Source: Fidelibacterota bacterium
GTDB taxonomy: Bacteria; Fidelibacterota; Fidelibacteria; Fidelibacterales; Fidelibacteraceae
Length of the DNA stretch: 32,000 bases
Direction: 5' to 3'
Assembly (NCBI GenBank): GCA_021157965.1
Contig: JAGGVO010000041.1
Location: 224,119-256,118 of the forward strand
Position 1 is the first letter of the stretch, and each line of letters starts with the position of its first letter. The position numbers and the translations under genes are program-made. Shown here in pieces: positions 3,261 through 24,726 of the stretch. The notes beneath the pieces are model-generated. The model did not search any database. It was not told where the DNA came from and worked only from the letters and a program-made list of their open reading frames with translations.

Positions 3261-3765
3261 TTTTTTTATCTAACTTTTCAAGAATTTCCCGAACGATGTC
3301 ACGGATGCTTCTTCCGTCGGTTTGAATATAATAATTCGCTTGTTTATAAACAAAAGTTCGTTTGTCCAGAATTTGCTGAATGTGAGCCGGCTGGAGAGGT
3401 TGAGGTAACAGAGGCCTGTTTTCACTCATTTTTACACGCTCCAGGATAGTTTGGGGTTCCGCCTGCAGCCAGATGACCACTCCCGTGGACTTCATCCATT
3501 CCCGGTTTCTTTCGTCCAGAGGAAATCCACCGCCGGTGGCAATGACCATATCAGAGGTATTGGGAAGAGGATCATGTTTTATGTCTCTTTCCAGTTTCCG
3601 GAAAGCCTCTTCACCTTCTGTCCGGAATATTTCCGGAATGCTCTTCCCTGTCTTTTTTTCCAGATAATGGTCCAGATCCAAAAAGGTGCATTTGAGTGAT
3701 TTTGCCAGAGCCTGGCCCACTTCGGTCTTGCCGGTTCCCATCATACCTGTCAGGAAGATGATCAT
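3253..3765 (-). CDS. aroK: shikimate kinase
   Basis: Walker A motif GMMGTGKTEVG at the N-terminus. 170 aa. ATGA stop/start overlap with aroC. Confidence 0.9.
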   Translation of the reverse strand: MIIFLTGMMGTGKTEVGQALAKSLKCTFLDLDHYLEKKTGKSIPEIFRTEGEEAFRKLERDIKHDPLPNTSDMVIATGGGFPLDERNREWMKSTGVVIWLQAEPQTILERVKMSENRPLLPQPLQPAHIQQILDKRTFVYKQANYYIQTDGRSIRDIVREILEKLDKKNA

Positions 3766-5722: not shown

Positions 5723-5725
5723 AAT

Positions 5726-8315: not shown

Positions 8316-9334
8316 TTTTTCAGCAATCCCCGCCCGATCACCTGACTGATGATATGGAGCTCTTTCATAAGATGGTTGAATTGTTTGGGGTAGAGGGATT
8401 GAGGCCCGTCAGAGAGAGCATTGATGGGATCGTCATGAACTTCCACCATGATGCCGTCCGCTCCGGCGGCTACGGCAGCCCGGGCCATGGGAACCACAAG
8501 CTCCCGGTTTCCCATGGCATGGCTTGGATCCACAATGATGGGTAAATGGGACAATTTTTTCACTACGGGGACTGAAGAGAGGTCCAGGGTAAAACGGGTG
8601 GAATTTTCAAATGTCCGGATCCCGCGTTCACATAAAATCACCTTTGAATTTCCGCCGTTCACAATATATTCGGCGGCATTCAGCCACTCTTCCACTGTGG
8701 CGGAGATGCCCCGTTTGAGGATCACCGGCTTGTCTACAGTCCCCAGGGCTTTGAGAAGGCTGTAATTCTGCATATTCCGGGCACCGACCTGAAGGGCATC
8801 CACATATTTGCAAAACAGGTCGATATCCGATATGGCCATCACTTCGGAAACACAGGGGATCCCCGATGCAAAGGCCGCATCCTGCAGGTATTTCAGTCCC
8901 TCTTCTCCCAGTCCCTGAAAGGTATAGGGGGATGACCGGGGTTTGTATGCACCGCCCCGGAGTACATGAGCACCGTAACGTTTGATTTCCCGGGAGAGCT
9001 TGTGAACCATCTTTTCATTTTCCACGGAGCAGGGACCGGCGATGACGGCGATTTCTTTGCCCCCGAAGGGGACTTTCCCCACATGGACAATGGTGTTTGA
9101 CGGCTTAAATGTCCGGGAACACTGTTTATAACTTTCTGATATCCGGATGACTTTGTTAACACCGTCAAACCCTTTGATTTTTTCGATGTCAACCCGGGAA
9201 ATATCTCCGATAATCCCAAGGATCATGTGATCTTCACCCCGGGATTTATGTATTTTCAGATCTAGTTTGTGCAGGTGCTCGGAAATCTGTTCGATTTGGG
9301 CGTCCTTTGCGCCCTGATTCATTACAATAATCAT
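8312..9334 (-). CDS. aroF: 3-deoxy-7-phosphoheptulonate (DAHP) synthase, type I-beta with N-terminal ferredoxin-like regulatory domain
   Basis: Architecture and many blocks match Thermotoga-type DAHPS: MIIVM..GIIGD N-terminal domain, IAGPCSVE, LRGGAYKPRSSPYTFQGLGEEGL, GARNMQN, ILCERGIRTF, VDPSH. Confidence 0.9.
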   Translation of the reverse strand: MIIVMNQGAKDAQIEQISEHLHKLDLKIHKSRGEDHMILGIIGDISRVDIEKIKGFDGVNKVIRISESYKQCSRTFKPSNTIVHVGKVPFGGKEIAVIAGPCSVENEKMVHKLSREIKRYGAHVLRGGAYKPRSSPYTFQGLGEEGLKYLQDAAFASGIPCVSEVMAISDIDLFCKYVDALQVGARNMQNYSLLKALGTVDKPVILKRGISATVEEWLNAAEYIVNGGNSKVILCERGIRTFENSTRFTLDLSSVPVVKKLSHLPIIVDPSHAMGNRELVVPMARAAVAAGADGIMVEVHDDPINALSDGPQSLYPKQFNHLMKELHIISQVIGRGLLKK

Positions 9335-10243: not shown

Positions 10244-11374
10244 ATGAATTCAGTGACGGTAATTCAGTCTCTGCAAACACTGAAAACCGAAGGGAATCCC
10301 GTAACAACGGTTTATCTTGACGTGTCTACATCCCAAAAGCTCCGAAATGCAGTTGTTGTTGTCAACAACATGTTTAAACAGAAAAAAGAGAAGACTTTTT
10401 ATAAAAACCTTTCAGAAAAGGAAAAAGTGTCTGTGCGGAAAGATGTGGAGGGTATTATCAAATTCCTTAATAACCAGCTGGGAGAAGATCGACAGTCGTT
10501 AATGATCGTATCGTCCAATCGGGCTTATGTGTGGCAGGTGATTCATCTGGGATTTCCGGTTGAAAATATGATGATGATTCAGGACCGCCCCTATCTGCGC
10601 CCTTTTCTGGAAGGCATCAGCCATGAACGGAATTATGCCATTGTCATGGTGGATCAGGGAAAGGCTAAAATTCTGATGAATCATCTCGGGAACAAGGAAG
10701 AAATGTTCAATGTGGTGAATCTGCTTCCTGAAGATGCCAATGAAGGCGGTTTTGGCGGTATGGATGAACGGAAGAATGAACGCCATCGTGAAGAGGTTGT
10801 GGCCAAGCATTATAAAAATGTGGCGGCTCAACTGGAAACACTGGATCGGAAATACCATTTTGACTGGATAATTTTGGGCGGACTCCGTGAGAGTATCTCC
10901 GATTTTGCCAACTATCTTAAAACCAATCTGAAGGATAAAATCAGCCGTGAAATCCATGTGGATCCCAATCTTCCCATGGATAAAGTTTTTCAGCTTGTGG
11001 ATAAGGAGATCCCGGGATGCCGTATGGATTTTGAGAAAGACATCCTGAATATGTTTGCCAATGAATTCCACAAGAACTACAAAGGTGTTGCCGGAATACA
11101 CCAGACGGAAGAAGCTCTTCAAAAGGGACAGGTGGACATGCTGATGATTCAGAATGGTTTTCAGACCAAAGGACGGGTGTGTAAATGGTGTTTGCACATG
11201 ACAACAGGGGAAGAAGACGAATGCCCCGGTTGCGGTCATCCCATGGTCCGAACCCTGGATATTACTGATGAGCTGATTCACCAGGCTTTGGATACCGGAG
11301 CGAAAATTGAATTTATCTCCTCGGATATGGGAGAATTTTCGCCCTTGTGCGGACTTCTTCGATATAAACCGTAA
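10244..11374 (+). CDS. bacterial eRF1/Pelota-like protein (baeRF-type) with C-terminal zinc ribbon, GGQ-less
   Basis: Central and C-terminal domain pattern of eRF1/Pelota: YAIVMVDQGKAKIL, WIILGG, GVAGIHQTEEALQKGQVDMLMI. Four-Cys insert CKWC..CPGC. Strong AAGGAGG Shine-Dalgarno site. Confidence 0.55.
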   Translation: MNSVTVIQSLQTLKTEGNPVTTVYLDVSTSQKLRNAVVVVNNMFKQKKEKTFYKNLSEKEKVSVRKDVEGIIKFLNNQLGEDRQSLMIVSSNRAYVWQVIHLGFPVENMMMIQDRPYLRPFLEGISHERNYAIVMVDQGKAKILMNHLGNKEEMFNVVNLLPEDANEGGFGGMDERKNERHREEVVAKHYKNVAAQLETLDRKYHFDWIILGGLRESISDFANYLKTNLKDKISREIHVDPNLPMDKVFQLVDKEIPGCRMDFEKDILNMFANEFHKNYKGVAGIHQTEEALQKGQVDMLMIQNGFQTKGRVCKWCLHMTTGEEDECPGCGHPMVRTLDITDELIHQALDTGAKIEFISSDMGEFSPLCGLLRYKP

Positions 11375-11489: not shown

Positions 11490-11561
11490 TTTTTAAGTAT
11501 GTATATATGTTGAAAGTTGTTATTCAACAACCGTAAATTCAAAATAAAAAAGGAAAACAGG

Positions 11562-12488
11562 ATGTCCCTCAATCGATGGCTTCGTTTGGGAACCGTTTTG
11601 GTGTTGTTGTCAGGTTGTGCCTGGTTCAGGGGGGGCGAGAGTCCCGAAGGGGACGAAGGACTTGCCGTTGATTCAACGGAAATAGCTTTACAGAATGATT
11701 TAATTCAACAGGAAATGAATGAGATCACGACTTCCGGTACCCGGGATAGTGTTATTCAGGAGCGGGATTATTCCTTTGTTTTGAATGAGCTCTCCTATGA
11801 ATTGAAAAAACAGGGTGCCCGGATCAAACACCTGGAATCTGAGCTGAAAGACCTGAAGGCAAAATCCACCCTCTGGGAGAATCCCCTGAAGATTTATAAT
11901 AAAGAAATCATTCTTCAGAACGGGACCAGCATGTTTGGCAAGATCATGTACCAGGATAGTGATATTTTAAAAGTTCAAACGCTCATCGGGTACTTTGTCC
12001 TTTCCCGTGATGAGGTAGTGCGTATTGTGGATAATATTCCCGCATCTGCTGTTGAAAGCCGCGAAGTTGCGGCGGATCAGGCTTCCGGACAGCCGGTATC
12101 GGTACCGACAGCGGAAACGATTTCTCCTGTTGAATTACCGGAAAGACCCTCACCATCGGCGGTGGATGCAAATTGTATTTTGGTGGGGAACATCCGTGAA
12201 AGCACGGATCCCTCGGGGAATCGCATTTTTTCTGGAGAGGTGAAGAATATAGGTGCCCGTCGGGCTGATTTTGTAAAGATCACATTTGTCTTTCGCATGA
12301 ACTGGAGCGGTGAGACGAAAACCCTGACGACCTTTGTCAAGGGATCCTTTATGAATTATGCCAGTGGTGTTAGCTCTGATGCGGCCTTACTGCCCGGTGC
12401 CACCGGAAGGTTCACATTGAATATTCCGGCATCTTTTGGTACATTTATCGGTTATTCATATAGCATTAACTGGGAGGAATATGATTAA
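11562..12488 (+). CDS. lipoprotein with coiled-coil segment and C-terminal beta-sandwich-like domain
   Basis: Start at the ATG at 11562 (AAGGAAAA upstream). Signal peptide plus lipobox LVLLSGC. Heptad-rich LSYELKKQGARIKHLESELKDLKAK. The C-terminal part has alternating beta-strand patterns (FSGEVKNIGARRADFVKITFVF). No enzymatic motif. Confidence 0.6.
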   Translation: MSLNRWLRLGTVLVLLSGCAWFRGGESPEGDEGLAVDSTEIALQNDLIQQEMNEITTSGTRDSVIQERDYSFVLNELSYELKKQGARIKHLESELKDLKAKSTLWENPLKIYNKEIILQNGTSMFGKIMYQDSDILKVQTLIGYFVLSRDEVVRIVDNIPASAVESREVAADQASGQPVSVPTAETISPVELPERPSPSAVDANCILVGNIRESTDPSGNRIFSGEVKNIGARRADFVKITFVFRMNWSGETKTLTTFVKGSFMNYASGVSSDAALLPGATGRFTLNIPASFGTFIGYSYSINWEEYD

Positions 12489-13422
12489 GCGATTCTCGGC
12501 GTTACCGCATGTGATGATTCCGCTGCTTTTCTCTGTCCTTTTTCTTGCAGCCTGCGGAGGATCCCGTCCGGAAGTTCCTCCGGAGAAACTACAGCGGACC
12601 GAAGATGACCTGCGGAGGCGCGAACAGGAAGTCCAGCAAAAAACCATCGAGATTCTTGATCTGAAAAACCAGATCATTATACTCCAAAGTGAAATCAGTG
12701 AACTGAAATCCAATATTATCGAACTGGAAAGCCATCGTGATTCCCTTCGCTCCAGGCTGATGAATGAAAAAATGTCTGCCGAAGAGCTGGAGGGGATGTT
12801 ATCGGAACTGGACGAAAAAAACCTGGAACTGAAACGACAAAACGAGCTGCTTCAATCGTACCTGAATGCATCGCAGGATTCTATCCTGAAGGCGCTGGAA
12901 ACGGCTGCCGTGAAAGAATCCGAACAAAATCTTTTAAAAACAATCTCCCGGAATGAACCGGTAAAAACCGATACGGCAGTGGGAAAAATCGTTGCCGACA
13001 CAAGCGCTTTGAATGCAGCTATAAGTCCTGTCATGGATCTGACCCAGGATGAATACCTGCAGCGGTATCAGGATGCTCTGGACCTCCTGTTCGACAAACA
13101 ACGCAATAAGGCCATCGAGGAATTCAGGGAATTGATCCGAATTGCCCCGGATAACGATTATTCAGACAATTGCCAATACTGGATTGGTGAAGGGTATTAT
13201 GCACAGGGGCTCTACAGTCGTGCCATTGAGGAATTTGAAAAAGTCAAAACGCTGCCGAACGGCAATAAAGCTGATCATGCCCAATTTAAAATCGGTCTGT
13301 CTTACCTGAAACTGGGACAGAAAGTAGAAGGTCTGGAAGCCTTTAAAAAACTTCTGGAGGAATATCCGAACAGTGAATTGGTCGGCAAGGTCCGGGATAT
13401 GATTAATTCAGGACAGTTCTGA
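12481..13422 (+). CDS. YbgF/CpoB-like coiled-coil + TPR lipoprotein
   Basis: Start at 12481 (GGGAGGA Shine-Dalgarno site, ATGATTAA overlap with the previous stop). Lipobox LFLAACGG. Long coiled coil. C-terminal block NCQYWIGEGYYAQGLYSRAIEEFEKV..KADHAQFKIGLSYLKLGQ..EEYPNSE matches the YbgF/CpoB TPR domain. Confidence 0.7.
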   Translation: MIKRFSALPHVMIPLLFSVLFLAACGGSRPEVPPEKLQRTEDDLRRREQEVQQKTIEILDLKNQIIILQSEISELKSNIIELESHRDSLRSRLMNEKMSAEELEGMLSELDEKNLELKRQNELLQSYLNASQDSILKALETAAVKESEQNLLKTISRNEPVKTDTAVGKIVADTSALNAAISPVMDLTQDEYLQRYQDALDLLFDKQRNKAIEEFRELIRIAPDNDYSDNCQYWIGEGYYAQGLYSRAIEEFEKVKTLPNGNKADHAQFKIGLSYLKLGQKVEGLEAFKKLLEEYPNSELVGKVRDMINSGQF

Positions 13423-13423
13423 T

Positions 13424-14080
13424 ATGAAATTTTTGTGTTTCGTCTGTTCTTTGACATGTTTTGCCACTTTGGGTTTTTCTCAGGACCCTATGCTGGATAT
13501 GGATATGCTTTTTCCTGAACGGTCCGTCAGACAGGATTCTGCCCTGATAAACCTGCAATCTTCAGGAACGGATATGGGAGGGGCCGTCTCTCTGGCGGAA
13601 TTGCAAAAACGTATAGAACGCCTGGAAGAAGAAGTCCGATTGCTTAAAAAAGCCCTGGAAGAACGGCAACAGGTTACAGAAAAAAAGCCTGATGATCCGG
13701 GATTTCCTCTCATTGAGCAGCAACTGTATGCCCGGGCTCTCCGCTATTTTACAGCCGGGGATTATGGAAAGGCATCCGAATTGCTTCGGCAGGTGAGAGA
13801 AAACACACAAGAGAAAGAACTGAACCTCAGCGCCCTCTACTGGCTGGGGGAATGTGCCTTTCGGCAAAACAACTACAATGAAGCCGTGGTGCTTCTCCAG
13901 GAACTGCTTTCCGAAGAGAGTAAAATATTCCGGGAAAATGCCCTGATCCTTGTTGCCATCAGTTTCAGAAATCTCGGAAAACAGGCCGAATCCGAACGCT
14001 ATTTTCAGGCATATCTGGAAGCATACCCCGATTCAAAATATTCGGCCCTCGCCCGGAGAGAATTGAAAAAAAATCAGTGA
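13424..14080 (+). CDS. secreted YbgF/CpoB-like coiled-coil + TPR protein (second copy)
   Basis: Signal peptide MKFLCFVCSLTCFATLGFSQ. Short coiled coil (LQKRIERLEEEVRLLKKALEE). TPR block ALYWLGECAFRQNNYNEAVVLLQELL..AYPDSKYSALA. Starts 1 nt after the previous stop. Confidence 0.65.
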   Translation: MKFLCFVCSLTCFATLGFSQDPMLDMDMLFPERSVRQDSALINLQSSGTDMGGAVSLAELQKRIERLEEEVRLLKKALEERQQVTEKKPDDPGFPLIEQQLYARALRYFTAGDYGKASELLRQVRENTQEKELNLSALYWLGECAFRQNNYNEAVVLLQELLSEESKIFRENALILVAISFRNLGKQAESERYFQAYLEAYPDSKYSALARRELKKNQ

Positions 14081-14097
14081 TAAAAGTGATAAAAAAC

Positions 14098-15438
14098 ATG
14101 AAACAATTAAAATGGCTGTTCCTTCTGTTATGCGTGGTACTGTACGGCCATACGGCCCACGCATCCTCTCAGGTTTCCTTTATGAAACCGGGGCCCATGA
14201 TGCGGGTGCCGTCAAGTTCTGTGGAAGACTCACCCTATCTTTTCCGGACCGGTTTCGGTTCCGATCTGTACGGAATCGAAGATTTTCGCATGTCCAAAGG
14301 GGTCTTTTTCGATATGGACATTATCAATTCACTGAATGTGGGATTCTCCGTGATCCAGCCCTATGATGTTACCGCCATGAATACATCCGATGTGGAATAC
14401 GGCTTTCACCTGACGAAACGGGTTATGGCCTATGGGGATATTTCCATGGCTGTGGGACTTTGGGATTTTGTCCTGAGGAATATCGATGACGAAATGCAGG
14501 TGGATAATCAGAACTTTTCCTTTTTTGCTGTGATTTCTACTGAAAAGATGATGGGAGAAACGGGTTTTAATACATATATGGGTGTGGGTAGCGGTGGACT
14601 TTCCCGGGGTTTTTCAAGTAATGATACTACCACAAGTATAGGGGTTTTTGCCGGTTTCCTGTTCAGGACCGGTATGATGGCAGATCGGGGAGGGATTAAC
14701 CTGATTGGTGAATTTGACGGAGGGGGATTGAATCTGGGGATGGAAATCCCCCTGACGACAGAATACAGGTTGAATCTGGGTATCTCCCAATTACAGTGGC
14801 TGCCGAATTTTGGGAAGGAAAATGAGACCGATCTGCCGGCCATATCCATGGGCCTCACCCTGGCCATCCCCCGAAGTTTGCCGGGACGGGCATCACGGCG
14901 CAGCGGTATAGCGGTTGGTACGGGTGAGAATACAGGAACATCGGCGACAGAATCGGAATACCGTGCCAAACTGGATTCCATCCTGAGAGAAGCAGATGCC
15001 ACCATTATGGGCCTCCGGGATTCCCTGAGGATATCTGTCCAGACGGTGGACGACCTGAACAATACCATCGCCCTTCTCCGTCAGCAGAAATCCGTCCTGG
15101 AAGATTCTCTCCAATCGGTGAAACTTCAGCAGCATGTGATGCAGCAAAATATCAATCTGGCCCTGAAGCATTTGAGCCGGAGTCTCCGGTATTTTTATGC
15201 CGGCGATTATATTCAGGCGCTGAATGAGGTGGATATTGCCATCCAGCTCAATCCCAATCTTTCTCTTGCCTACGCACGCCGGGGGTCGATTTATTACAAA
15301 ATGGGAGATATTCAAAGGGCGGCGATCAACTGGAATCTGGCCCTGCAGATCGACCCCGAATATGATGATGTCCGCAATATTCTGAAGGTCCTCCAGGAAA
15401 CCCGCTCTCGTACAGGGTCCTTCATGAACAATAACTAA
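14098..15438 (+). CDS. secreted beta-barrel-like domain + coiled coil + TPR fusion protein
   Basis: The ATG at 14098 gives the signal peptide MKQLKWLFLLLCVVLYGHTAHASS. A GTG at 14077 overlapping the previous TGA is the alternative start. The first ~250 aa are Gly/aromatic-rich alternating strands (YGFHLTKRVMAYGDISMAVGLWDF, GINLIGEFDGGGLNLGMEI, YRLNLGISQLQW). A coiled coil follows, then TPRs (YFYAGDYIQALNEVDIAIQLNPN, AYARRGSIYYKMGD). Confidence 0.6.
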   Translation: MKQLKWLFLLLCVVLYGHTAHASSQVSFMKPGPMMRVPSSSVEDSPYLFRTGFGSDLYGIEDFRMSKGVFFDMDIINSLNVGFSVIQPYDVTAMNTSDVEYGFHLTKRVMAYGDISMAVGLWDFVLRNIDDEMQVDNQNFSFFAVISTEKMMGETGFNTYMGVGSGGLSRGFSSNDTTTSIGVFAGFLFRTGMMADRGGINLIGEFDGGGLNLGMEIPLTTEYRLNLGISQLQWLPNFGKENETDLPAISMGLTLAIPRSLPGRASRRSGIAVGTGENTGTSATESEYRAKLDSILREADATIMGLRDSLRISVQTVDDLNNTIALLRQQKSVLEDSLQSVKLQQHVMQQNINLALKHLSRSLRYFYAGDYIQALNEVDIAIQLNPNLSLAYARRGSIYYKMGDIQRAAINWNLALQIDPEYDDVRNILKVLQETRSRTGSFMNNN

Positions 15439-15447
15439 GGAGTCTGA

Positions 15448-16242
15448 ATGGATTTTGCAACCATCTTAGGGATTTTTATGGGCCTGGGACTGATCTTTTT
15501 TGGAATTACACTCCTTACACAGGATTATCAGATGTTTTGGTCCCTGCCCTCCCTTGCCATTGTTTTGGGAGGATCCCTTGCCGCCACACTGATTGCCTTT
15601 CCCCTTCACGAAGTCGGCCGCGTTTTTAAGGTGATTGGCATTGTCTTCAGAAAAGAACGGCGGGATATGCAAACGCTGGTCCGCCAGGTTACGGAACTGG
15701 CGGCTTTTGCCCGGCGGGGTCCAACAGAACTTGAGAAGCACATTGAAGAGGTGAAACATCCCTTTTTGAAGGATGGTATTCAGCTTGTGATTGACGGCTA
15801 TAGTGATGCTGATATCCGGGAAATCCTCACGTTGCGGATTGTAAACCGTGAACAGCGTGAAAAAGGGGAAGTGAATGTTGTAAAAACCATGGGAAAACTA
15901 TCCCCTGCTTTTGGTATGATCGGAACCCTTATCGGATTGGTTGTGATGCTATATGGCATGAGTGTAAGCGATGCGTCGGGCGATATGGCGGCTCAGCTTG
16001 GAAGAGGGATGGGTGCGGCCATTGTGACAACCTTCTACGGGGCTATTCTGGCGAATCTCTTTTTCAATCCAGCTGCCGCGAAAATCGATTCCCGTATTCA
16101 GAAAGCTTCCATGCTTCAACTGATGCTCATCGAAGGTGTTTGTCTTCTCTATCACCGGAAACATCCCCTCATTGTCCGGGAAAAGCTGAATTCCTTTCTC
16201 CCCCCCCGGGACTGGATCCGTGAAGAAGAACGAAAAGGCTGA
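15448..16242 (+). CDS. motA: flagellar-type stator protein MotA/PomA
   Basis: MDFATILGIFMGLGLIFFGI N-terminus. Four TM segments. Cytoplasmic loop ARRGPTELEKHIEEVKHPFLKDGIQLVIDGYSD aligns with the PomA/MotA loop. Conserved channel prolines SPAFGMIGTLIGLV and FFNPAAAKI. AAGGAG Shine-Dalgarno site. Confidence 0.88.
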   Translation: MDFATILGIFMGLGLIFFGITLLTQDYQMFWSLPSLAIVLGGSLAATLIAFPLHEVGRVFKVIGIVFRKERRDMQTLVRQVTELAAFARRGPTELEKHIEEVKHPFLKDGIQLVIDGYSDADIREILTLRIVNREQREKGEVNVVKTMGKLSPAFGMIGTLIGLVVMLYGMSVSDASGDMAAQLGRGMGAAIVTTFYGAILANLFFNPAAAKIDSRIQKASMLQLMLIEGVCLLYHRKHPLIVREKLNSFLPPRDWIREEERKG

Positions 16243-16901
16243 TGGAAAAAACAAAGAAAAAAATACCCCTTCCCCCTGAAGAGACGGATTCGGAAGAGTG
16301 GCTTGTTACCTATTCGGATATCATGACACTGCTCATGACTTTTTTCGTATTGCTTTTTTCCATGTCCACCATCGACCCTGTGAAAATTGAACAGTTTGGT
16401 GAGGCGATGGGAAAGGAACTGGGAGTCAAGACCTCTGAAAGAACCGGCCGGGTCTCCCTTGCCCAGATTGACCGGGACGTGAAGGAGATTGTCAACGAAG
16501 AAAACTTAAACGAATATGTGGAAGTCACCCATTCCTACAGAGGGGTGACTATCTCGATTGTGGCTGATATCCTGTTTACCCGGGGAAGTGCCGAGCTGAA
16601 TCCCCGGGTCTATTCGATTCTTAACAAATTTATTCCGAAGATTCAAAATTCCATCTATCAGATTGCTGTGGAGGGACATACAGACAGTGATCCCATCCAT
16701 TCGGATAAATATCCGTCAAACTGGGAATTGTCTGCTGCCAGAGCCTCGCAGGTTGTCAATTATTATATTTCACAAGGCATTGATCCGGAACGTTTCAGGG
16801 CCATTGGTTTTGCTCATACCCGGCCTAAAAAACCAAATACAAGTCCGGAAAACAAGAGCCAGAACCGCCGGGTTGAAATAACATTCCTGGCAATATCTTA
16901 A
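16242..16901 (+). CDS. motB: stator protein MotB with OmpA-like peptidoglycan-binding domain
   Basis: WLVTYSDIMTLLMTFFVLLF plug/TM segment with the channel Asp (D26, nt 16317-16319). C-terminal OmpA-like block VEGHTDSDPI..NWELSAARASQV..NRRVEI. TGATG overlap with motA. Confidence 0.88.
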   Translation: MEKTKKKIPLPPEETDSEEWLVTYSDIMTLLMTFFVLLFSMSTIDPVKIEQFGEAMGKELGVKTSERTGRVSLAQIDRDVKEIVNEENLNEYVEVTHSYRGVTISIVADILFTRGSAELNPRVYSILNKFIPKIQNSIYQIAVEGHTDSDPIHSDKYPSNWELSAARASQVVNYYISQGIDPERFRAIGFAHTRPKKPNTSPENKSQNRRVEITFLAIS

Positions 16902-16916
16902 TAAAGGAGAGCTACA

Positions 16917-18470
16917 ATGAATTGTCGGAATCGCATGTGTTTAACTCTGGCAATAATTCTGTTAACATCAGCTATGCTGAGTGGTGAATCCCCGAATTAT
17001 CTGTCCCAGAAACTCGCACTCGAACAGGCACTCCAGAATAAAATTTCACAGGCTGTAGAACGCATTCTCGGGAATAATCATTTTATTGTTGATGTGAAAG
17101 CAGATTTGGATTTTGTTCCCGATCAGCGCGTTGAGGAAGTGTATGAACCGGCGGTACCGGGACGTGCACTTGTACAACCGGCTCCTGAAGCCGAAAGTTC
17201 CCGGGAAAGGGACAGGGCCTACGAAGAAGAATACAATGAAATTCTCCCCGGCATACCTGCGCGGATTGGCGACCGCGGATTGGATATCCTGACAGAAGAG
17301 CTTCCGTCAGATACTTCCCGTATCCGCGAGGAGCAAACAGCCGTTCTGCCGGGAGTTGAGAATATTGAACCGGAGAGGCTCAAAAGCCGTTCGGTTGCCC
17401 GTTCTGTTCCCCTGATTCCGAAAGTCAGGAAACTGGACATCAGCATCATTTTAAAGGAAGGCATCGAGCCGGATCTGGTGGAATCCATTCGTCAGGTGGC
17501 AATGATTGCCTCCCATTTCGACCGCTCCCGGGGAGATATGCTGAGTATTATGACAACGACTTTCAGGGATGACAAGCTGATGGCCGGTGCGGAAACCGGA
17601 GTAATACCGGGAGATGTTGAGTATCAGCCATCCCGCGAAGAACAGGAACGGACCGATGAAACTCAGGAACTGATTCGCCAAATCCAGGATCAGATTGAAC
17701 GGCTTTCACAACAGCAGCAGAGGCAGGCGCCCCGGAGCAATGAACCCACACCAACGGAAAACATGCTGCTTAAAATCATTGATAAGCTCAATACCCGTCA
17801 GTCCCTTGCCGATGATCTGGAAACACAGAAGATGATTACGGAGCAGAAGCTCCGGCTTGAAATGCTGGGACGCGATACTACCCGATTGCAGGAACTCCGG
17901 GATGAAATAGCAGCCCTGAAACTTCAGCTGGCAACCCGGGAAATGGCTGTTGAAGACCGGGAAAGTACACGGGCTGCATCAGACAGTATGCTTCGGGAAA
18001 AAGAAGAACTGGAAGAGGCCATTGCGGAAAAAATCGCCCTCCTCTCGGAGACGCAAAAAGAGCTTATGGACATGCAAAAGGCTCAAATCCCCTGGTGGTT
18101 CTGGGGGCTTCTGGCTGCTTTGCTTGCTGTTGTCATTGTGCTGGTTGTACTGATTCTGAACCGCGGCAGAGTGCGCCGTCAGGAGGAAGAAGCTCCGAAA
18201 CCGGAACCGGCAGCCAGCGAGGATGCCCTCCGTGAAAAGATTCTCAGGGAATTGCGGGAAAGCAAGAAAGAGAGCAAACTTGAGCGGGAACCGGATCAGG
18301 GATCCGATATGGCTGAAAAGCGGGCGGAGCTGGAAGGAATCCGGAAAAATATCGTCAATATGAGTGTAGCCAACCCCGATACTGCCAGCAAGATTATCCG
18401 GGATTGGATGGAAGAAGATGAAACGCCCGCAGACCAGGCGGAAGAAAAAGGAGAACGGAAAAATGAGTGA
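16917..18470 (+). CDS. FliF-like ring protein: RBM3-like domain + long coiled coil + TM helix + FliG-binding-like tail (RBM1/RBM2 absent)
   Basis: N-terminal hydrophobic segment. LEQALQNKISQAVERILGNNHFIVDVKADLDF resembles the start of FliF RBM3 (LEQRVEQILSPIVGNGNVHAQVTAQLDF). KLDISIILKEG..IRQVAMIASHFDRSRGDMLSIMTTTF resembles its end (LSVAVVVN..GFSDKRGDTLNVVNSPF). About 165 aa of coiled coil follow, then TM IPWWFWGLLAALLAVVIVLVVLIL. The tail ASKIIRDWMEEDE resembles the C-terminal IRQWM FliG-binding helix of FliF as I recall it. Confidence 0.65.
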   Translation: MNCRNRMCLTLAIILLTSAMLSGESPNYLSQKLALEQALQNKISQAVERILGNNHFIVDVKADLDFVPDQRVEEVYEPAVPGRALVQPAPEAESSRERDRAYEEEYNEILPGIPARIGDRGLDILTEELPSDTSRIREEQTAVLPGVENIEPERLKSRSVARSVPLIPKVRKLDISIILKEGIEPDLVESIRQVAMIASHFDRSRGDMLSIMTTTFRDDKLMAGAETGVIPGDVEYQPSREEQERTDETQELIRQIQDQIERLSQQQQRQAPRSNEPTPTENMLLKIIDKLNTRQSLADDLETQKMITEQKLRLEMLGRDTTRLQELRDEIAALKLQLATREMAVEDRESTRAASDSMLREKEELEEAIAEKIALLSETQKELMDMQKAQIPWWFWGLLAALLAVVIVLVVLILNRGRVRRQEEEAPKPEPAASEDALREKILRELRESKKESKLEREPDQGSDMAEKRAELEGIRKNIVNMSVANPDTASKIIRDWMEEDETPADQAEEKGERKNE

Positions 18471-19398
18471 TCCTCAAAAACTTTCCAATCTGGACAGGGC
18501 CGCAATCATTTATAAAATATTGGGGGACAATTTATCCGTCTCCCTTTTCAGGCACCTTTCCCAGGCGCAGTTGACTAAATTGCGGCGCCATGCCGAAACG
18601 CTGACTAAAGTGCCTTTCGATCTGAAAAGAAAGGTTCTGGAAGAGTATTATTTTCAGCTTATGTCTGAAAAAATCCGGTCCGTCAGCGACGGGGACCAGA
18701 AAGTGCTTTTTGATTTCTTAAAACCTATGTCTTCTGATCAAATCAAATACCTGCTGGAGCCGGAAAGCGAACTGGTAAAAGCCCTTGTCCTGAGCCAGCT
18801 GAGCATTGAAGTACAGGTGGATGTCATAAAAAACATGGAAGAAGATGAACGGGCACGGGTTTTAATACAGATGAATGATATCGATAAAATCCCTTATGAA
18901 GGGATTATCAATATTGAGAACGATATTCGCGAAAAATCCCGGCTGGTTCCCCATAAAGCCCATTTTAACAAAGGAGGATCCAAACAGATTGCTGATATCC
19001 TGAGTAAGCTGGAGCCGGATTTTGAAGAACAGTTTGTAAGTCATGTACAAAATGAAGACCCGGAACTGGCCCGTGATCTGGCGAAATATTACATACCTTT
19101 TGACAGTTTCGACAAACTTCCGGTGGATGTGGTCAGGGAGGCGCTGAAAAGCGTGGAACTGAATGATCTGGCCCTGGCCCTGAAGGGAATGAGCGAAGAA
19201 TTTGTCACCTATATTCTGGGAAATCTGCCACAGAAAACCCAGATAATGCTGGAAGATGAAATAAAGGATGTGGAAGGTCCCCAGCCCCGGCGGAAAGTTG
19301 AAAGTGCACGGCGCAAACTGACCCAGGCCGTGAAACAACTTGCTGCCGAGGGTAAATTTGATATTGAGGATTTCCTCGATACGGATATGGTGGAATAA
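18463..19398 (+). CDS. fliG: FliG-like rotor/switch protein
   Basis: Start at the ATG at 18463 (AAAGGAGAA Shine-Dalgarno site, ATGAGTGA overlap with the upstream stop). Collinear with FliG throughout: LDRAAIIYKILG, LLEPESELVKALVLSQL (EHPQ region), NKGGSKQIADILSKLEP (Gly-Gly linker), EDPELA, LNDLALALKGMSEE, torque helix LPQKTQIMLEDEI, GPQPRRKVESARRKLTQAVKQLAAEGKFDI. Confidence 0.85.
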   Translation: MSDPQKLSNLDRAAIIYKILGDNLSVSLFRHLSQAQLTKLRRHAETLTKVPFDLKRKVLEEYYFQLMSEKIRSVSDGDQKVLFDFLKPMSSDQIKYLLEPESELVKALVLSQLSIEVQVDVIKNMEEDERARVLIQMNDIDKIPYEGIINIENDIREKSRLVPHKAHFNKGGSKQIADILSKLEPDFEEQFVSHVQNEDPELARDLAKYYIPFDSFDKLPVDVVREALKSVELNDLALALKGMSEEFVTYILGNLPQKTQIMLEDEIKDVEGPQPRRKVESARRKLTQAVKQLAAEGKFDIEDFLDTDMVE

Positions 19399-19429
19399 AA
19401 GCCGGAGATCTGATAAAAAGATATCTTAT

Positions 19430-19462
19430 GCCGGACGGGGTGTTTCCTGTCCGGCATTTTTT
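19430..19462 (+). terminator. rho-independent terminator ending the rotor-stator operon
   Basis: GC-rich hairpin GCCGGACGGGG / CCTGTCCGGC with a 5-nt loop, followed by A and a T6 run. Begins 32 nt after the fliG-like stop. Confidence 0.7.
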
Positions 19463-22316: not shown

Positions 22317-23072
22317 ATGAAGTATTGCGTAAAAATATCCCTCCTGTTTTTGCTTTTGGTCGGCTCACTGGCGGCACAGTTCGTCCCGGCACCGGTTCAG
22401 TTAATTAATACCCCGACTGTCGCAACCCTGGCACGGGGATCTTACCTGACTGATTTACGTTTTACCACCAATGGCGGGGTGCTGATCGGGGCAACAGTAG
22501 GTCTGACAGATCGTTTTTCCATGGGTATATCCTATGGAGGATCCAACATTATCGGCAATGAAAATATCACCTGGAATCCCCAGCCCGGTGTGAGTGTCAA
22601 ATATCGACTTATTGATGAAGGAATGAAAAAACCGGGTGTCTCTATGGGATTTTCCTCTCAGGGCTATGGGGCTTATACCGACGGGAATTATGAAATTCCT
22701 TCCTCCGGCTTTTATTCTGTCCTCAGCAAAAACTGGCATTTTATCGGCAATACAAGCCTTCATGCAGGGGCTAATTATTCCCTGGAACAGCCAGACAGCA
22801 CCTATATCCCCTCTTTCTTTGCCGGGGCTGCCATTGAACTAAATCCTCAATTCTCTATTATGATCGAATATGATGCCGCCCTGAATTATGAAAAATTTTC
22901 AGATTTAAAAAAATTCAAAATTTCCGGCGGGTACGGTTTTCTGAATGCCGGTGTCCGCGTTGGCATTACGGAAAATCTCTACCTGGAAGTGGATCTGAAC
23001 AATCTTATCTGGGGCGAAAATGTGGAATCCTTTAACCGTGAAATTAAATTGATGTATTTTGATATCTTCTGA
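22317..23072 (+). CDS. outer-membrane beta-barrel protein (possibly YjbH-like)
   Basis: Signal peptide MKYCVKISLLFLLLVGSLAAQ. Alternating amphipathic strands. C-terminal aromatic residue (..KLMYFDIF). The N-terminal INTPTVATLARGSY resembles the start of YjbH-type barrels, from memory only. Confidence 0.6.
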   Translation: MKYCVKISLLFLLLVGSLAAQFVPAPVQLINTPTVATLARGSYLTDLRFTTNGGVLIGATVGLTDRFSMGISYGGSNIIGNENITWNPQPGVSVKYRLIDEGMKKPGVSMGFSSQGYGAYTDGNYEIPSSGFYSVLSKNWHFIGNTSLHAGANYSLEQPDSTYIPSFFAGAAIELNPQFSIMIEYDAALNYEKFSDLKKFKISGGYGFLNAGVRVGITENLYLEVDLNNLIWGENVESFNREIKLMYFDIF

Positions 23073-23073
23073 C

Positions 23074-24726
23074 ATGAAATCCTTTCAGCTTTCTTCCGAG
23101 ATTCTTGCTTCCAAATCCAAAGATGAACTGATAGATATTATCAGAATCATTCAGGACCGGGTCAATGTTTTTGTCTCGGTAGGGACATCCCTCAGTACGG
23201 AAAAAAACCAGGATGTCCTCCTGGAAAATATTGTAACCTATGCGAAAAAATTAACCGGTGCCGATGCCGCAACGCTTTATATGATGTCGGAAGATGAAAA
23301 AAAACTCAGGTTTAGCATTGTCCATACAGATTCCATGAATATCCGGATGGGGGGGACATCGGGAAATCCCATCGATTGGTATCCGGTGAAATTGTATAAT
23401 GAGGATGGATCGCCCTATCTGGAGATGGTTGCGGCGTATGTTGCATTGAAGAAGGAAACCCTGAACTTTGAAGATGTGTACGATGTAAAAGATTTTAATT
23501 TTACCGGTACACGGCAGTTTGACCGAAAAACCGGTTACCGGACTCAGTCCATGCTGGCTCTGCCAATGCTGAACCATGTAAATGAAGTGATTGGTGTACT
23601 CCAATTAATCAATGCAAAAGACGAATCGGGGAACACCATTGCCTTCTGTCCTGAATTCCAGGCGCTGACGGAAGCTCTGGCCAGTCAGGCCGCCGTGGCC
23701 ATTACGGAAAACCGTCTTATCAATGGACTTGAAGAATTATTGAATTCCATCATCCGTGTAATTGCTTCGGCGATTGATGAAAAATCCAAATATACAAGTG
23801 GTCACATTGAACGGGTGGCGAAACTGGCAGTGTATCTGGCACAACAGATTTCTGAAAGCCGGGACGGTGTTTACAAAGATGTCCGCTACAGTGACGAGAA
23901 AATTGAGGAGATCCGTTTTGCCGGCCTTCTTCACGATATCGGTAAGATTACCACACCGGAATACGTGGTGGATAAATCCACAAAACTGGAAACCATTTAT
24001 GACAGGATCCGGACGATTTTTCTCCGTTTTGAATTGCTGAAAAAAGATCGTGAAATAGAGATGTGGAAGGCTTTAGCAGGAACGCCGCAAGATGATTCTT
24101 CCAGAGCTGAACGGGAAAATCTGATGAAAGAGCTGGAAGAAGAAATCCGGAAAATCAGTGAGGATTATGCCTTTATTCAGCGGATGAATACAGGGGGTGA
24201 GTTTCTCAAACCCGAATACAAGAACCGGATTTGCGATATTGCACGGTATACTGTTACGATAGATGGAAAAAGTACGCCTATCTTAACGGATGATGAGATT
24301 CTTAATCTGCATATTTCCAAAGGTACACTGACCGAGGAAGAACGGCAAATCATTAATAATCATGCGGTTGTCACTGATAAAATGCTCTCACAGCTTCCAT
24401 TTCCCAAGAAATTGAAAAATGTTCCCGAGTATGCTGCCAACCACCATGAACGCATGGACGGTTCGGGATATCCCAAGGGACTTAAAGCGGAAGATTTGGA
24501 ATTGCCGGCGCGTATCATGGCCATGGCCGATATTTTTGAAGCCTTAACAGCGCCGGACAGACCCTACAAAAAAGGGAAAACACTTTCTGAAGCCATGAAA
24601 ATCATGGAATTTATGGTGAAGGATTATCATATCGATCCGGATCTGTTTGCCTTTTTCAAGGAAGCTAAAGTATACCGCTGGTATGCAGAAAAATTCATGA
24701 ATCCCGAACAAATTGATATGGATTAG
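23074..24726 (+). CDS. GAF domain-containing HD-GYP c-di-GMP phosphodiesterase
   Basis: HD-GYP signature: GHIERVAKLA, FAGLLHDIGKI, NHHERMDGSGYPKGL, ADIFEALTAPDRPYKK. The N-terminal ~200 aa is GAF-like (ADAATLYMM..LRF..QSMLALPM..VIGVLQLIN). About a 100-aa insert lies between the HD and GYP halves. The ATG at 23074 is preferred over the TTG at 23059. Confidence 0.85.
   Translation: MKSFQLSSEILASKSKDELIDIIRIIQDRVNVFVSVGTSLSTEKNQDVLLENIVTYAKKLTGADAATLYMMSEDEKKLRFSIVHTDSMNIRMGGTSGNPIDWYPVKLYNEDGSPYLEMVAAYVALKKETLNFEDVYDVKDFNFTGTRQFDRKTGYRTQSMLALPMLNHVNEVIGVLQLINAKDESGNTIAFCPEFQALTEALASQAAVAITENRLINGLEELLNSIIRVIASAIDEKSKYTSGHIERVAKLAVYLAQQISESRDGVYKDVRYSDEKIEEIRFAGLLHDIGKITTPEYVVDKSTKLETIYDRIRTIFLRFELLKKDREIEMWKALAGTPQDDSSRAERENLMKELEEEIRKISEDYAFIQRMNTGGEFLKPEYKNRICDIARYTVTIDGKSTPILTDDEILNLHISKGTLTEEERQIINNHAVVTDKMLSQLPFPKKLKNVPEYAANHHERMDGSGYPKGLKAEDLELPARIMAMADIFEALTAPDRPYKKGKTLSEAMKIMEFMVKDYHIDPDLFAFFKEAKVYRWYAEKFMNPEQIDMD

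What the first reader, a model, noticed from the sequence alone, without database searches (positions are those of the whole stretch)
16917..18470. FliF-like protein keeps only the RBM3 ring module and the FliG-binding tail, and replaces RBM1/RBM2 with a ~165-aa coiled coil
Seen in sequence:
- Directly after the N-terminal hydrophobic segment, residues ~33-66 (nt ~17013-17114) read LALEQALQNKISQAVERILGNNHFIVDVKADLDF.
- Residues ~172-216 read KLDISIILKEG..FDRSRGDMLSIMTTTF.
- From memory these match the beginning and end of Salmonella FliF RBM3 (..RIEAILSPIVGNGNVHAQVTAQLDF.. and ..LSVAVVVN..DKRGDTLNVVNSPF).
- I see no sequence corresponding to RBM1 or RBM2.
- A heptad-rich, Q/E/R-rich stretch of ~165 aa follows, then one TM helix (WWFWGLLAALLAVVIVLVVLIL) and a charged tail ending ..ASKIIRDWMEEDE.. 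(nt ~18384-18422). The tail resembles the FliF C-terminal helix that docks FliG-N.

Established knowledge: RBM3 forms the S-ring and beta-collar. RBM1/RBM2 form the inner M-ring that houses the type III export gate.

Inference: a ring with a C-ring adaptor but no export-gate socket fits a rotor that does not secrete or assemble an axial rod.
Basis: partly seen in the sequence, partly recalled or inferred. Interest (0 to 1): 0.8.

Follow-up and report, generated by a model that had tools for sequence, protein, structure and literature searches.

The report
Flagellar-type rotor core without a flagellum
A marine bacterial phylum that appears to lack flagella keeps a stripped-down flagellar ring protein, its partner FliG and the MotAB ion motor in one conserved operon, which suggests the flagellar torque engine is used for something other than swimming.

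Summary
ORF 16917-18470 (517 aa) has this layout: cleavable signal peptide, FliF RBM3 domain split by a collar-type insertion, ~155-aa periplasmic helical stalk, one TM helix, cytoplasmic tail.

- **RBM3:** Pfam PF08345 scores above its cutoff. The top 18 Foldseek hits to PDB are all FliF S-ring/RBM3 structures.
- **Tail:** it is homologous to canonical FliF C-termini, the FliG-binding region (HHalign 95%, E 2e-8).
- **RBM1/RBM2:** there is no PF01514 hit and no room for these domains.

The helical stretch lies after RBM3, stretching the RBM3-TM2 linker, so it does not occupy the RBM1/2 position. The N-terminal hydrophobic segment is a signal peptide, not TM1.

The gene sits in an 8-gene operon: lipoprotein, two CpoB-like coiled-coil/TPR proteins, a TPR protein, MotA, MotB, FliF-like, FliG-like. 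The core is syntenic in 80 Marinimicrobia (Fidelibacterota) species genomes and under purifying selection (dN/dS 0.03-0.14). No export-gate, rod or switch genes lie nearby. Published MAG tables show fliG without fliM/fliN.

Best reading: a filament-less MotAB-FliG-FliF rotor acting on the envelope. Rotation, ring formation and genome-wide absence of flagellar genes remain untested.

The parts
11517..12488 (+). First operon gene: 323-aa lipoprotein (lipobox LLSGC) with a coiled-coil segment. No known domain.
   Evidence: ORF and sequence. No Pfam or PDB match. Syntenic in 61 of 80 Marinimicrobia loci.
12436..13422 (+). CpoB/YbgF-like lipoprotein (lipobox LAAC): long coiled coil plus a YbgF-type TPR domain.
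   Evidence: Pfam TPR_6 and YfiO. TIGR02795 tol_pal_ybgF E 9e-20, 71.5 bits, below the 90.1-bit cutoff. Syntenic.
13424..14080 (+). Second secreted coiled-coil + YbgF-type TPR protein.
   Evidence: Pfam TPR families. TIGR02795 E 5e-15.
14077..15438 (+). 453-aa secreted protein: ~280-aa beta-rich N-terminal region of unknown fold, then coiled coil, then TPR.
   Evidence: Only the TPR part matches Pfam or PDB. Syntenic in 70 of 80 loci.
15448..16242 (+). Flagellar-type MotA/PomA stator A subunit.
   Evidence: NCBIfam MotP/PomA/MotA E 1e-53 to 1e-45. PDB C. sporogenes MotA E 2e-44 over the full length. R90/E98 equivalents are >=90% conserved in the family.
16242..16901 (+). MotB: TM helix with channel Asp, plug, and OmpA-like peptidoglycan-binding domain.
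   Evidence: Pfam MotB_plug E 5e-19 and OmpA E 1e-19. The Asp in TYSDIM is conserved in the family.
16917..18470 (+). FliF-like protein, 517 aa (the finding).
16917..16985 (+). Signal peptide (residues 1-23; predicted cleavage LSG|E, Q at +1 in nearly all relatives).
   Evidence: 77 of 77 relatives have [G/A/S]|Q 5-8 residues before RBM3 helix 1, after a K/R n-region and a ~14-aa h-region. Cleavage itself is inferred.
16992..17150 (+). RBM3 first half (residues 26-78): helix 1 and strands 1-2.
   Evidence: Aligns to Salmonella FliF 240-~290. AlphaFold pLDDT 81-91.
17151..17378 (+). Insertion inside RBM3 (residues 79-154), at the position of the FliF beta-collar/loop. Carries the invariant P111 in ILPGIP.
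   Evidence: Variable length, with an invariant Pro and the (I/L)PG motif. In the profile alignment the PG aligns with Salmonella GGVPGALSNQP. Disordered in the monomer model.
17379..17564 (+). RBM3 second half (residues 155-216): strands, helix 2 and the last strand (FDRSRGDMLSIMTTTF).
   Evidence: Aligns to Salmonella FliF ~360-439. pLDDT 86-92. Most conserved block of the family.
17625..18086 (+). Periplasmic helical/coiled-coil stalk (residues ~237-390).
   Evidence: AlphaFold helices 240-269 and 279-387. Heptad signal is patchy. The RBM3-to-TM linker is 120-207 aa in 74 relatives.
18090..18161 (+). Single transmembrane helix (residues 392-415), followed by NRGRVRR (positive-inside).
   Evidence: Hydropathy scan on close homologs P0001-P0014. 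Helix 394-421 in the model. Sequence.
18327..18416 (+). Cytoplasmic helix-Pro-helix tail (residues 471-500: ELEGIRKNIVNMSVANPDTASKIIRDWMEE), homologous to the FliG-N-binding C-terminus of FliF.
   Evidence: HHalign against canonical FliF tails: 95.4%, E 1.8e-8. Aligns to Salmonella ...IREMSDNDPRVVALVIRQWMSND. W497 is invariant. Binding was not tested.
18463..19398 (+). FliG-like protein (311 aa from ATG 18463; 8-nt overlap with the FliF-like stop).
   Evidence: Pfam FliG_N E 5e-13, FliG_M 3e-9, FliG_C 1e-22. PDB T. maritima FliG E 3e-17. SD sequence and ATGAGTGA overlap. Family conservation. Only ~21% identical to canonical FliGs.
19428..19457 (+). Intrinsic-terminator-like hairpin closing the operon.
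   Evidence: 13-bp stem with 8 GC pairs, followed by a T-run.

Best explanation
The gene encodes the membrane-spanning rotor subunit of a filament-less motor derived from, or related to, the flagellar rotor-stator core.

**Shown**
- After signal-peptide removal the protein starts directly with a FliF-type RBM3 ring-building domain. The domain still carries a collar-position insertion with a conserved PG motif.
- RBM3 is held away from the inner membrane by a ~120-200-residue helical stalk. The longest predicted helix has 109 residues, about 16 nm if straight.
- One TM helix follows, then a cytoplasmic helix-Pro-helix tail homologous to the FliF tail that docks FliG-N.
- The next gene is translationally coupled and encodes a three-domain FliG. 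The two genes before it encode a flagellar-type MotA, which keeps the Arg/Glu pair that contacts FliG, and a MotB with channel Asp, plug and peptidoglycan anchor.

**Inferred**
- RBM3 oligomerises into an S-ring-like ring.
- Each tail recruits one FliG-like subunit under the membrane.
- Peptidoglycan-anchored MotAB units convert ion flow into torque on FliG-C.
- The whole FliG/TM/stalk/RBM3 assembly turns.
- Because RBM1/RBM2, the socket for the type III export gate, are absent, nothing is exported and no rod is built.
- The distal ring instead works on the co-encoded outer-membrane lipoproteins and CpoB-like coiled-coil/TPR proteins.
- The output is therefore mechanical work on the peptidoglycan/outer-membrane layer. 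This could be movement of surface or outer-membrane components, or Tol-Pal-like envelope coordination.

The nature of the load is the weakest step.
For: **Domain identities**
- RBM3.
- Tail homology. Canonical FliFs (PF01514 + PF08345) also match the family profile best through their C-terminal TM2 + tail.
- FliG N/M/C domains. FliG-N is the best-conserved part of the family.
- Flagellar-type stator with conserved R/E, Asp, plug and OmpA domain. These are the features a 2025 study lists as specific to flagellar stators (PMC12505986).

**Operon structure**
- Gaps or overlaps of -53 to +15 nt run from 11517 to 19398. The FliF/FliG overlap is 8 nt and a terminator lies at 19428.
- The lipoprotein-TPR-MotA-MotB-FliF-like-FliG-like block is syntenic in 80 Marinimicrobia species genomes and in L081.

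**Selection**
- dN/dS is 0.10-0.14 for FliF-like and 0.03 for FliG-like.

**Absence of other flagellar genes**
- None lie within +-10 kb. Downstream genes are unrelated housekeeping genes.
- In a published MAG table, 5 of the 9 Marinisomatota rows seen have fliG. All 9 lack fliM, fliNY and cheA/B/R (PMC10359470 Suppl. Dataset 3).
- The only isolate of the phylum is a non-motile diderm (PMC11652737).

**Ring formation**
- Isolated Salmonella RBM3 forms rings on its own (PMC8786727).
Against: - Nothing shows ring formation, FliG binding or rotation. Only monomer models were possible, and the insertion is disordered.
- The FliG torque-helix acidic pair is not conserved across the family. The D288 equivalent is Pro in most members, although a neighbouring Glu is >=90% conserved.
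- A FliG ring without FliM/FliN has no natural precedent.
- I did not test genome-wide absence of export-gate, rod, hook or filament genes. The MAGs cited are 50-85% complete.
- I did not check whether the non-motile isolate carries the operon.
- A few metagenomic relatives have almost no stalk, so the stalk is not universal.
- The load is unknown.
Confidence: 0.55

Rival explanations
1. Static platform rather than rotor. The FliF-like/FliG-like assembly is a fixed membrane scaffold that recruits and unplugs MotAB units. The ion-driven motion of MotAB, not rotation of a ring, energises the periplasmic CpoB-like/TPR partners, in a Tol-Pal/TonB-like manner. The stalk and RBM3 serve only as a spacer or adaptor to the peptidoglycan/outer-membrane layer.
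For: - Two CpoB/YbgF-like proteins and OmpA-type anchors are in the operon.
- FliM/FliN are absent.
- The torque-helix acidic pair is not conserved family-wide.
- The output is unknown.
Against: - The stator is of the flagellar type, not the TolQR/ExbBD type (TolQ E 0.017 against MotP 8e-53).
- It keeps the FliG-contacting R/E pair.
- FliG-C is well conserved (Pfam E 1e-22).
- RBM3 is a ring-building module.
- No TolA, TolB or Pal homologue was seen in the operon.
Confidence: 0.25
2. It is the MS-ring protein of a genuine but very divergent flagellum. The export gate, rod, hook and filament genes lie elsewhere in the genome. The RBM1/RBM2 function is supplied by another protein.
For: - All four genes are flagellar homologues, and databases name the protein FliF.
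- I could not scan whole genomes.
Against: - fliF-fliG is not followed by fliH/I/J in any of 80 loci.
- The Marinisomatota MAG rows seen lack fliM, fliN and che genes.
- The cultured member is non-motile.
- RBM1/RBM2 are conserved in almost all FliF orthologues surveyed, Chlamydiaceae excepted (PMC4768692).
- A ~16-nm stalk would displace the S-ring from its normal position.
Confidence: 0.1
3. Decaying remnant of a lost flagellum with no present function.
For: The proteins are far from canonical FliF and FliG (TIGR00206 and TIGR00207 scores are far below cutoffs; ~21% identity to canonical FliG).
Against: - Intact ORFs and the same gene order occur in 80 species genomes spanning 25-90% identity.
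- dN/dS is 0.03-0.14.
- Functional residues are conserved.
- The genes are translationally coupled and the operon ends in a terminator.
Confidence: 0.03

Closest known systems
Flagellar MS-ring protein FliF (Salmonella/Vibrio; PDB 6SCN, 6SD1, 7D84, 8Z4G)
   Same: - RBM3 fold with an insertion at the collar position and a conserved PG motif.
- C-proximal TM helix.
- C-terminal helix-Pro-helix tail with the ...P(D/E)xAxxI(R/K)xW(L/M)xE motif.
- Gene immediately upstream of fliG.

   Different: - No RBM1/RBM2 (PF01514).
- A signal peptide instead of TM1.
- A 120-207-aa helical stalk between RBM3 and the TM helix, where canonical FliF has almost none.
- TIGR00206 scores 26.8 bits against a 129.75-bit cutoff.
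- No export-gate, rod or switch genes nearby.

Chlamydiaceae FliF-FliG fusion (Bergeron 2016, PMC4768692)
   Same: A truncated FliF in a bacterium regarded as non-flagellated, physically or genetically coupled to FliG.
   Different: It is the converse truncation. Chlamydia keeps RBM2 plus an unassigned RBM-like segment, lacks the RBM3/SpoIIIAG-like domain, and is fused to FliG-M. It co-occurs with FlhA/FliI and an injectisome, and no association with MotAB is described.
Flagellar rotor-stator pair FliG / MotA5B2 (e.g. PDB 8UCS MotA with FliG-C)
   Same: - FliG N, M and C domains.
- MotA R90/E98 equivalents.
- MotB Asp, plug and OmpA domain.

   Different: - The EHPQR FliM-binding motif is degenerate.
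- The acidic pair of the torque helix is not conserved family-wide.
- FliM/FliN are apparently absent.
- FliG is ~21% identical to canonical FliGs.

SpoIIIAG sporulation ring (PDB 5WC3) and SctJ/PrgK
   Same: An RBM-type ring-building fold with an insertion (SpoIIIAG).
   Different: They are much weaker structural matches (E 0.08 and 0.06, against 5e-7 for FliF RBM3). They have no FliG-binding tail and no stator genes.
Tol-Pal system with CpoB/YbgF
   Same: The operon combines a MotA/TolQ-superfamily ion motor, an OmpA-type peptidoglycan anchor and coiled-coil + YbgF-type TPR proteins.
   Different: - The motor is flagellar-type MotAB, not TolQR.
- There is no TolA, TolB or Pal.
- TIGR02795 scores are below cutoff.
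- A FliF/FliG pair is present.
GldLM/PorLM gliding and type IX secretion motor of Bacteroidota (own knowledge)
   Same: It works like the proposed model. A non-flagellar, ion-driven inner-membrane motor in the FCB group has a long periplasmic shaft that transmits motion toward the outer membrane.
   Different: No homology was detected. GldL/GldM are not FliG/FliF/MotAB, and no Gld or Por domain was found in the operon.

Membership tests
FliF (flagellar MS-ring protein) | RBM3 / 'YscJ_FliF_C' domain (PF08345) | tested here: met
   PF08345 at 30.9 bits against a 23.8-bit cutoff, residues 48-216. PDB profile hit to Salmonella FliF 240-439. The Foldseek top 18 are all FliF RBM3.
FliF (flagellar MS-ring protein) | RBM1-RBM2 SctJ-homology region (PF01514), which forms the inner M-ring around the export gate | tested here: not met
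   No PF01514 hit at E <= 0.1. The mature N-terminus lies 5 residues before RBM3. The remaining periplasmic part is all-helical.
FliF (flagellar MS-ring protein) | Full-length equivalog score (TIGR00206 cutoff 129.75 bits) | tested here: not met
   26.8 bits. Only model positions 240-289 matched.
FliF (flagellar MS-ring protein) | Two TM helices flanking the periplasmic region | tested here: not met
   The C-proximal TM helix is present (392-415). The N-terminal segment has signal-peptide features with [G/A/S]|Q in 77 of 77 relatives. Cleavage is inferred, not shown.
FliF (flagellar MS-ring protein) | C-terminal cytoplasmic tail that binds FliG-N | tested here: inconclusive
   Sequence homology of the tail is supported (HHalign 95.4%, E 1.8e-8). 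The tail-only search of the PDB was not significant (E 0.4). Binding could not be tested because no multimer prediction was available.
FliF (flagellar MS-ring protein) | Oligomerises into a ~33-34-mer ring | not testable with these tools
   Only monomer AlphaFold was available. Isolated Salmonella RBM3 forms rings (PMC8786727).
FliF (flagellar MS-ring protein) | Co-occurrence with the flagellar export gate, rod, hook and filament genes | tested here: inconclusive
   None lie within +-10 kb in 80 genomes. The MAG rows seen lack fliM/fliN. Whole genomes were not scanned.
FliG (rotor/switch protein) | FliG_N, FliG_M and FliG_C domains | tested here: met
   PF14842 E 5e-13, PF14841 E 3e-9, PF01706 E 1e-22. 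PDB FliG hits.
FliG (rotor/switch protein) | Equivalog score (TIGR00207 cutoff 226.7 bits) | tested here: not met
   96.7 bits. About 21% identity to canonical FliGs.
FliG (rotor/switch protein) | EHPQR motif (FliM docking) | tested here: not met
   The window protein has E-S-E-L and the family has E-x-P-R. The R160 equivalent is not conserved.
FliG (rotor/switch protein) | Charged torque-helix residues (E. coli K264, R281, D288, D289, R297) | tested here: inconclusive
   The window protein has K..QK..LEDEI..PRR, so all are represented. In the family, the Lys at the R281 position is >=70% conserved, an adjacent Glu >=90%, and an Arg near R297 >=90%. The D288 position is Pro in most members.
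Flagellar-type stator MotAB/PomAB | MotA with an expanded cytoplasmic torque domain and the R90/E98 pair; MotB with channel Asp, plug and OmpA-like domain | tested here: met
   Full-length alignments to MotA/PomA structures at E 2e-44 to 1e-32. R and E are >=90% conserved, and the Asp is conserved. MotB_plug and OmpA hits. NCBIfam equivalog cutoffs are not reached, e.g. 179 against 394 bits.
SpoIIIAG / SctJ ring proteins | Best structural and sequence match to these RBM families | tested here: not met
   SpoIIIAG is at rank 29 (E 0.08) and the PrgK/PrgH model at rank 25 (E 0.06), against FliF RBM3 at E 5e-7.
Tol-Pal system | TolQ/TolR motor, TolA, TolB, Pal, CpoB | tested here: not met
   MotA matches TolQ only at E 0.017. 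CpoB-like TPR proteins score below the TIGR02795 cutoff. No TolA, TolB or Pal domain is in the operon.

The most novel reading that the evidence does not exclude
Marinimicrobia (Fidelibacterota) run a free-standing MotAB-FliG-FliF rotary motor that has no type III export apparatus, rod, hook, filament or FliM/FliN switch. Its RBM3 ring, carried on a long periplasmic stalk, drives outer-membrane or peptidoglycan-associated coiled-coil/TPR proteins. This would be the first non-flagellar use of the FliG/MotA torque couple. It would be either an exapted remnant of a lost flagellum or a living analogue of the export-independent proto-motor postulated in scenarios of flagellar origin.
Probability: 0.45. 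Interest if true: 0.92.

Novelty: new variant of a known kind. Interest (0 to 1): 0.8.

Why it matters
**Why it would be surprising.** As far as I know, the FliG-MotA torque couple and the FliF ring are described only as parts of the flagellum. The flagellar-type stator features are reported as tied to flagellar motility (PMC12505986). A phylum-wide, selected operon that keeps exactly the torque-generating core, discards the export-gate socket and adds envelope proteins would change that picture. It would show that the rotor-stator core can work as an autonomous module.

**What it would open up.**
- It gives a natural test case for whether rotation and type III export are separable, which is central to models of flagellar origin.
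- It points to an unknown energy-dependent envelope function in one of the most abundant deep-ocean bacterial groups.
- It offers a minimal FliF (RBM3 only, one TM helix) for structural work on S-ring assembly and FliF-FliG coupling.

**Practical warning.** fliG, fliF or motAB hits alone should not be read as evidence of motility in MAG surveys.

Tried and rejected
**Searches that added little or failed**
- The protein search with the 37-sequence family alignment returned only the close homologues already known. Coiled-coil words probably swamped the word index.
- The search for related loci with the same alignment failed for lack of a conserved stretch. A 12-sequence subset worked.
- The tail-only profile against the PDB put the Vibrio FliF C-terminus on top, but at E 0.4. 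It was replaced by a profile-profile test.
- Pfam, NCBIfam and PDB sequence searches of the accessory proteins gave only TPR/YbgF-like hits. The lipoprotein and the beta-rich N-terminal region gave nothing.

**Literature**
- Ten literature searches found no description of this operon or of an RBM3-only FliF.
- Absence from this open-access library is not proof of absence.

**Tests I could not run**
- Co-folding the tail with FliG-N was not possible.
- Whole-genome census of flagellar genes was not possible.

**Readings rejected**
- Cryptic RBM1/RBM2: there is no room and the region is all-helical.
- SpoIIIAG or SctJ identity: both are weaker structural matches than FliF RBM3 (E 0.06-0.08 against 5e-7).
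- Pseudogene remnant: dN/dS is 0.03-0.14.
Full report
**1. What is at the coordinates**

ORF 16917-18470 (+) encodes 517 aa. An AAAGGAG ribosome-binding site lies 7 nt upstream.

- Pfam places PF08345 (YscJ_FliF_C, the RBM3 region) on residues 48-216, above its gathering score: 30.9 against 23.8 bits, E 4.5e-7.
- Pfam finds no PF01514, the RBM1-RBM2 region.
- TIGR00206 matches only model positions 240-289, at 26.8 bits against a 129.75-bit cutoff.
- A profile of 12 close homologues aligns to Salmonella FliF residues 240-439 (E 3e-5).

**2. Structure**

The full-length AlphaFold monomer is of low confidence (pLDDT 62). It shows helices 240-269 and 279-387, a TM helix at 394-421, and a helix-break-helix tail at 463-485 and 487-500.

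Residues 25-237 were modelled with a 50-sequence alignment. The core has pLDDT 85-92 and the order alpha-beta-beta-[disordered 84-158]-beta-beta-alpha-beta.

Foldseek against the PDB returns 18 hits at E 5e-7 to 2e-5. All are FliF RBM3/S-ring structures. The list then jumps to E 0.04, with a PrgK/PrgH model at rank 25 and SpoIIIAG at rank 29.

The domain is therefore specifically FliF RBM3, split by an insertion at the beta-collar position. That insertion keeps an invariant Pro in an (I/L)PG motif. In the profile alignment, this motif falls on Salmonella GGVPGALSNQP.

**3. The two ends**

*N-terminus.* In 77 of 77 relatives the N-terminus has a K/R n-region, a ~14-residue hydrophobic core and [G/A/S]|Q. 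This lies 5-8 residues before RBM3 helix 1. That is a signal-peptidase I signature, and it matches the Q-at-+1 habit known from Bacteroidota (own knowledge). It is not a TM helix. The window protein has G|E at this site.

*C-terminus.* The tail (NIVNMSVANPDTASKIIRDWMEED) aligns with Salmonella IREMSDNDPRVVALVIRQWMSND.
- Canonical FliFs, confirmed to carry PF01514 + PF08345, match the family profile best through their TM2 + tail.
- A tail-only profile against a profile of 23 canonical FliF C-termini gives HHalign probability 95.4%, E 1.8e-8.
- A tail-only search of the PDB was not significant by itself (E 0.4), although the Vibrio FliF C-terminus ranked first.

*Topology.* It follows from the signal peptide, the single TM helix and the positive-inside NRGRVRR. 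RBM3 and the helical stretch are periplasmic and the tail is cytoplasmic.

**4.

The helical stretch does not sit where RBM1/RBM2 would be, which is N-terminal to RBM3. It lies between RBM3 and the TM helix.

In canonical FliF, TM2 is predicted at about 445-470, directly after RBM3 (PMC4768692). Here the RBM3-to-TM distance is 120-207 aa, median 156, in 74 species representatives. The 109-residue helix would span about 16 nm if straight.

The heptad signal is patchy. 'Helical stalk' is safer than 'coiled coil'. A few metagenomic relatives nearly lack it.

**5. Family and distribution**

- Close homologues are all Marinimicrobia.
- An exhaustive HMM search of 1.84 billion representatives finds 33 clusters below 1e-30 and 55 below 1e-10. 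Below that lie canonical FliFs matching only through RBM3 or the tail, at 1e-8 to 1e-4. This is a distinct subfamily.
- A scan of GTDB species genomes found 130 genomes with a relative. Of the best 80, 63 carry a Marinimicrobia/Neomarinimicrobiota/Fidelibacterota label. The other 17 carry generic labels (uncultured bacterium, FCB group bacterium), apart from one 2.9-kb contig binned as SAR86.
- NCBI names members 'FliF C-terminal domain-containing protein [Fidelibacterota]'.

**6. Context**

*In the window.* Eight + strand genes from 11517 to 19398 are packed with gaps or overlaps of -53 to +15 nt. They end at a strong terminator-like hairpin at 19428-19457. In order:
- a lipoprotein of unknown fold;
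- two coiled-coil + YbgF-type TPR proteins (TIGR02795 E 9e-20 and 5e-15, both below cutoff);
- a 453-aa secreted protein with an unknown beta-rich region, a coiled coil and a TPR domain;
- MotA;
- MotB;
- the FliF-like protein;
- the FliG-like protein, whose likely start at ATG 18463 overlaps the FliF-like stop by 8 nt.

*Across the 80 loci (tblastn).*

| Gene | Loci with a match (of 80) |
|---|---|
| MotB | 77 |
| FliG-like | 75 |
| MotA | 72 |
| 453-aa protein | 70 |
| Lipoprotein | 61 |

All are in the same order, and the misses are mostly at contig ends. All-against-all clustering agrees, and downstream genes are unrelated housekeeping genes. A divergent member on a 439-kb contig has the same layout.

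**7. Are the partners functional types?**

*Stator.*
- MotA aligns over its full length with flagellar MotA/PomA structures (E 2e-44).
- It scores MotP 8e-53 against TolQ 0.017.
- The equivalents of E. coli R90 and E98 are >=90% conserved in the family, as is the MotB channel Asp.
- MotB has a plug and an OmpA domain.
- These are the features listed as specific to flagellar stators (PMC12505986).

*FliG-like protein.*
- It has N, M and C domains.
- It is only ~21% identical to canonical FliGs, with a sharp gap below the 43% identity seen within the phylum.
- FliG-N is the best-conserved part.
- The EHPQR FliM-docking motif is degenerate.
- The window protein keeps the torque-helix charges (QK...LEDEI...PRR). 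Most of the family has Pro at the D288 position, next to a conserved Glu.

*Selection.* dN/dS is 0.10-0.14 for the FliF-like gene and 0.03 for the FliG-like gene.

**8. Is the organism flagellated?**

I could not scan whole genomes. The indirect evidence is:
- No other flagellar gene lies within +-10 kb in 80 genomes.
- In a published table of oxygen-deficient-zone MAGs, 5 of the 9 Marinisomatota rows I saw have fliG. All 9 lack fliM, fliNY, cheA, cheB and cheR. Completeness is 53-85% (PMC10359470 Suppl. Dataset 3).
- The only cultured member, Fidelibacter multiformis, is a non-motile diderm (PMC11652737).

**9. Mechanism proposed**

*Shown:* the domain identities, topology logic, operon structure, conservation and selection.

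*Inferred:*
- RBM3 forms an S-ring-like ring. Isolated Salmonella RBM3 does so (PMC8786727).
- The tail docks FliG-N.
- MotAB pushes FliG-C.
- The ring, lifted on the stalk toward the peptidoglycan/outer-membrane zone, acts on the co-encoded lipoprotein and TPR proteins.
- No export gate can be housed without RBM1/RBM2.

*Confidence and rivals:* confidence in the main reading is 0.55. Three rivals remain:
- a static stator-recruiting platform with Tol-Pal-like output (0.25);
- a genuine divergent flagellum (0.10);
- a decaying relic (0.03).

**10. Comparison and novelty**

The nearest described oddity is the chlamydial FliF. It is the converse truncation: it keeps RBM2, lacks RBM3, and is fused to FliG-M (PMC4768692).

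Ten literature searches found no description of an RBM3-only FliF or of this operon.

- At the protein level this is a new architectural variant of FliF.
- At the system level it may be a new kind of machine. That rests on the untested steps above.

Noticed in passing
window 26062-28272: A second flagellar-type stator set. MotA2 (272 aa, MotP/MotA/PomA E ~1e-50) keeps the R/E pair. Two MotB/OmpA-like genes follow, one without a plug hit, and then YchF. Two stator sets for one FliG would resemble dual-stator flagellar motors.
   Followed up: partly
window 10244-11374: A bacterial eRF1-like release-factor gene (baeRF_family10) lies directly upstream of the operon. The same is true in about 10 other Marinimicrobia loci and in L081. 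The reason is unknown.
   Followed up: partly
window 16917-16985 and L001-L080 FliF-like N-termini: All 77 family N-termini examined have [G/A/S]|Q at the predicted signal-peptidase site. The second TPR protein reads GFS|QDP. The Bacteroidota 'Q-rule' (N-terminal Gln after cleavage) may extend to this phylum.
   Followed up: partly
window 23059-24726: A 555-aa HDIG/HD-GYP-like protein resembles c-di-GMP phosphodiesterases (NosR-family hit E 9e-19). It is not conserved next to the operon.
   Followed up: no
window 7008-8315 (- strand): Prephenate dehydrogenase (PDH_N) and prephenate dehydratase (PDT) domains are fused in one 435-aa ORF. It lies inside a complete shikimate/aromatic amino-acid operon (2151-9334).
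   Followed up: no
window 22317-23072: A 251-aa secreted, beta-rich protein ends in ...YFDIF, like an outer-membrane barrel. It has no Pfam family. It is present downstream in L001 and L003 only.
   Followed up: no
window 19428-19457: A strong intrinsic-terminator-like hairpin (13-bp stem, 8 GC pairs, T-run) lies 30 nt after the FliG-like stop and marks the operon end.
   Followed up: yes
window 11517-12488 and 14077-14900; clusters in L001-L080: The first-gene lipoprotein family and the ~280-aa N-terminal region of the 453-aa protein family are conserved across the phylum. They match no Pfam, NCBIfam or PDB sequence, so they are candidate novel folds tied to the motor.
   Followed up: partly
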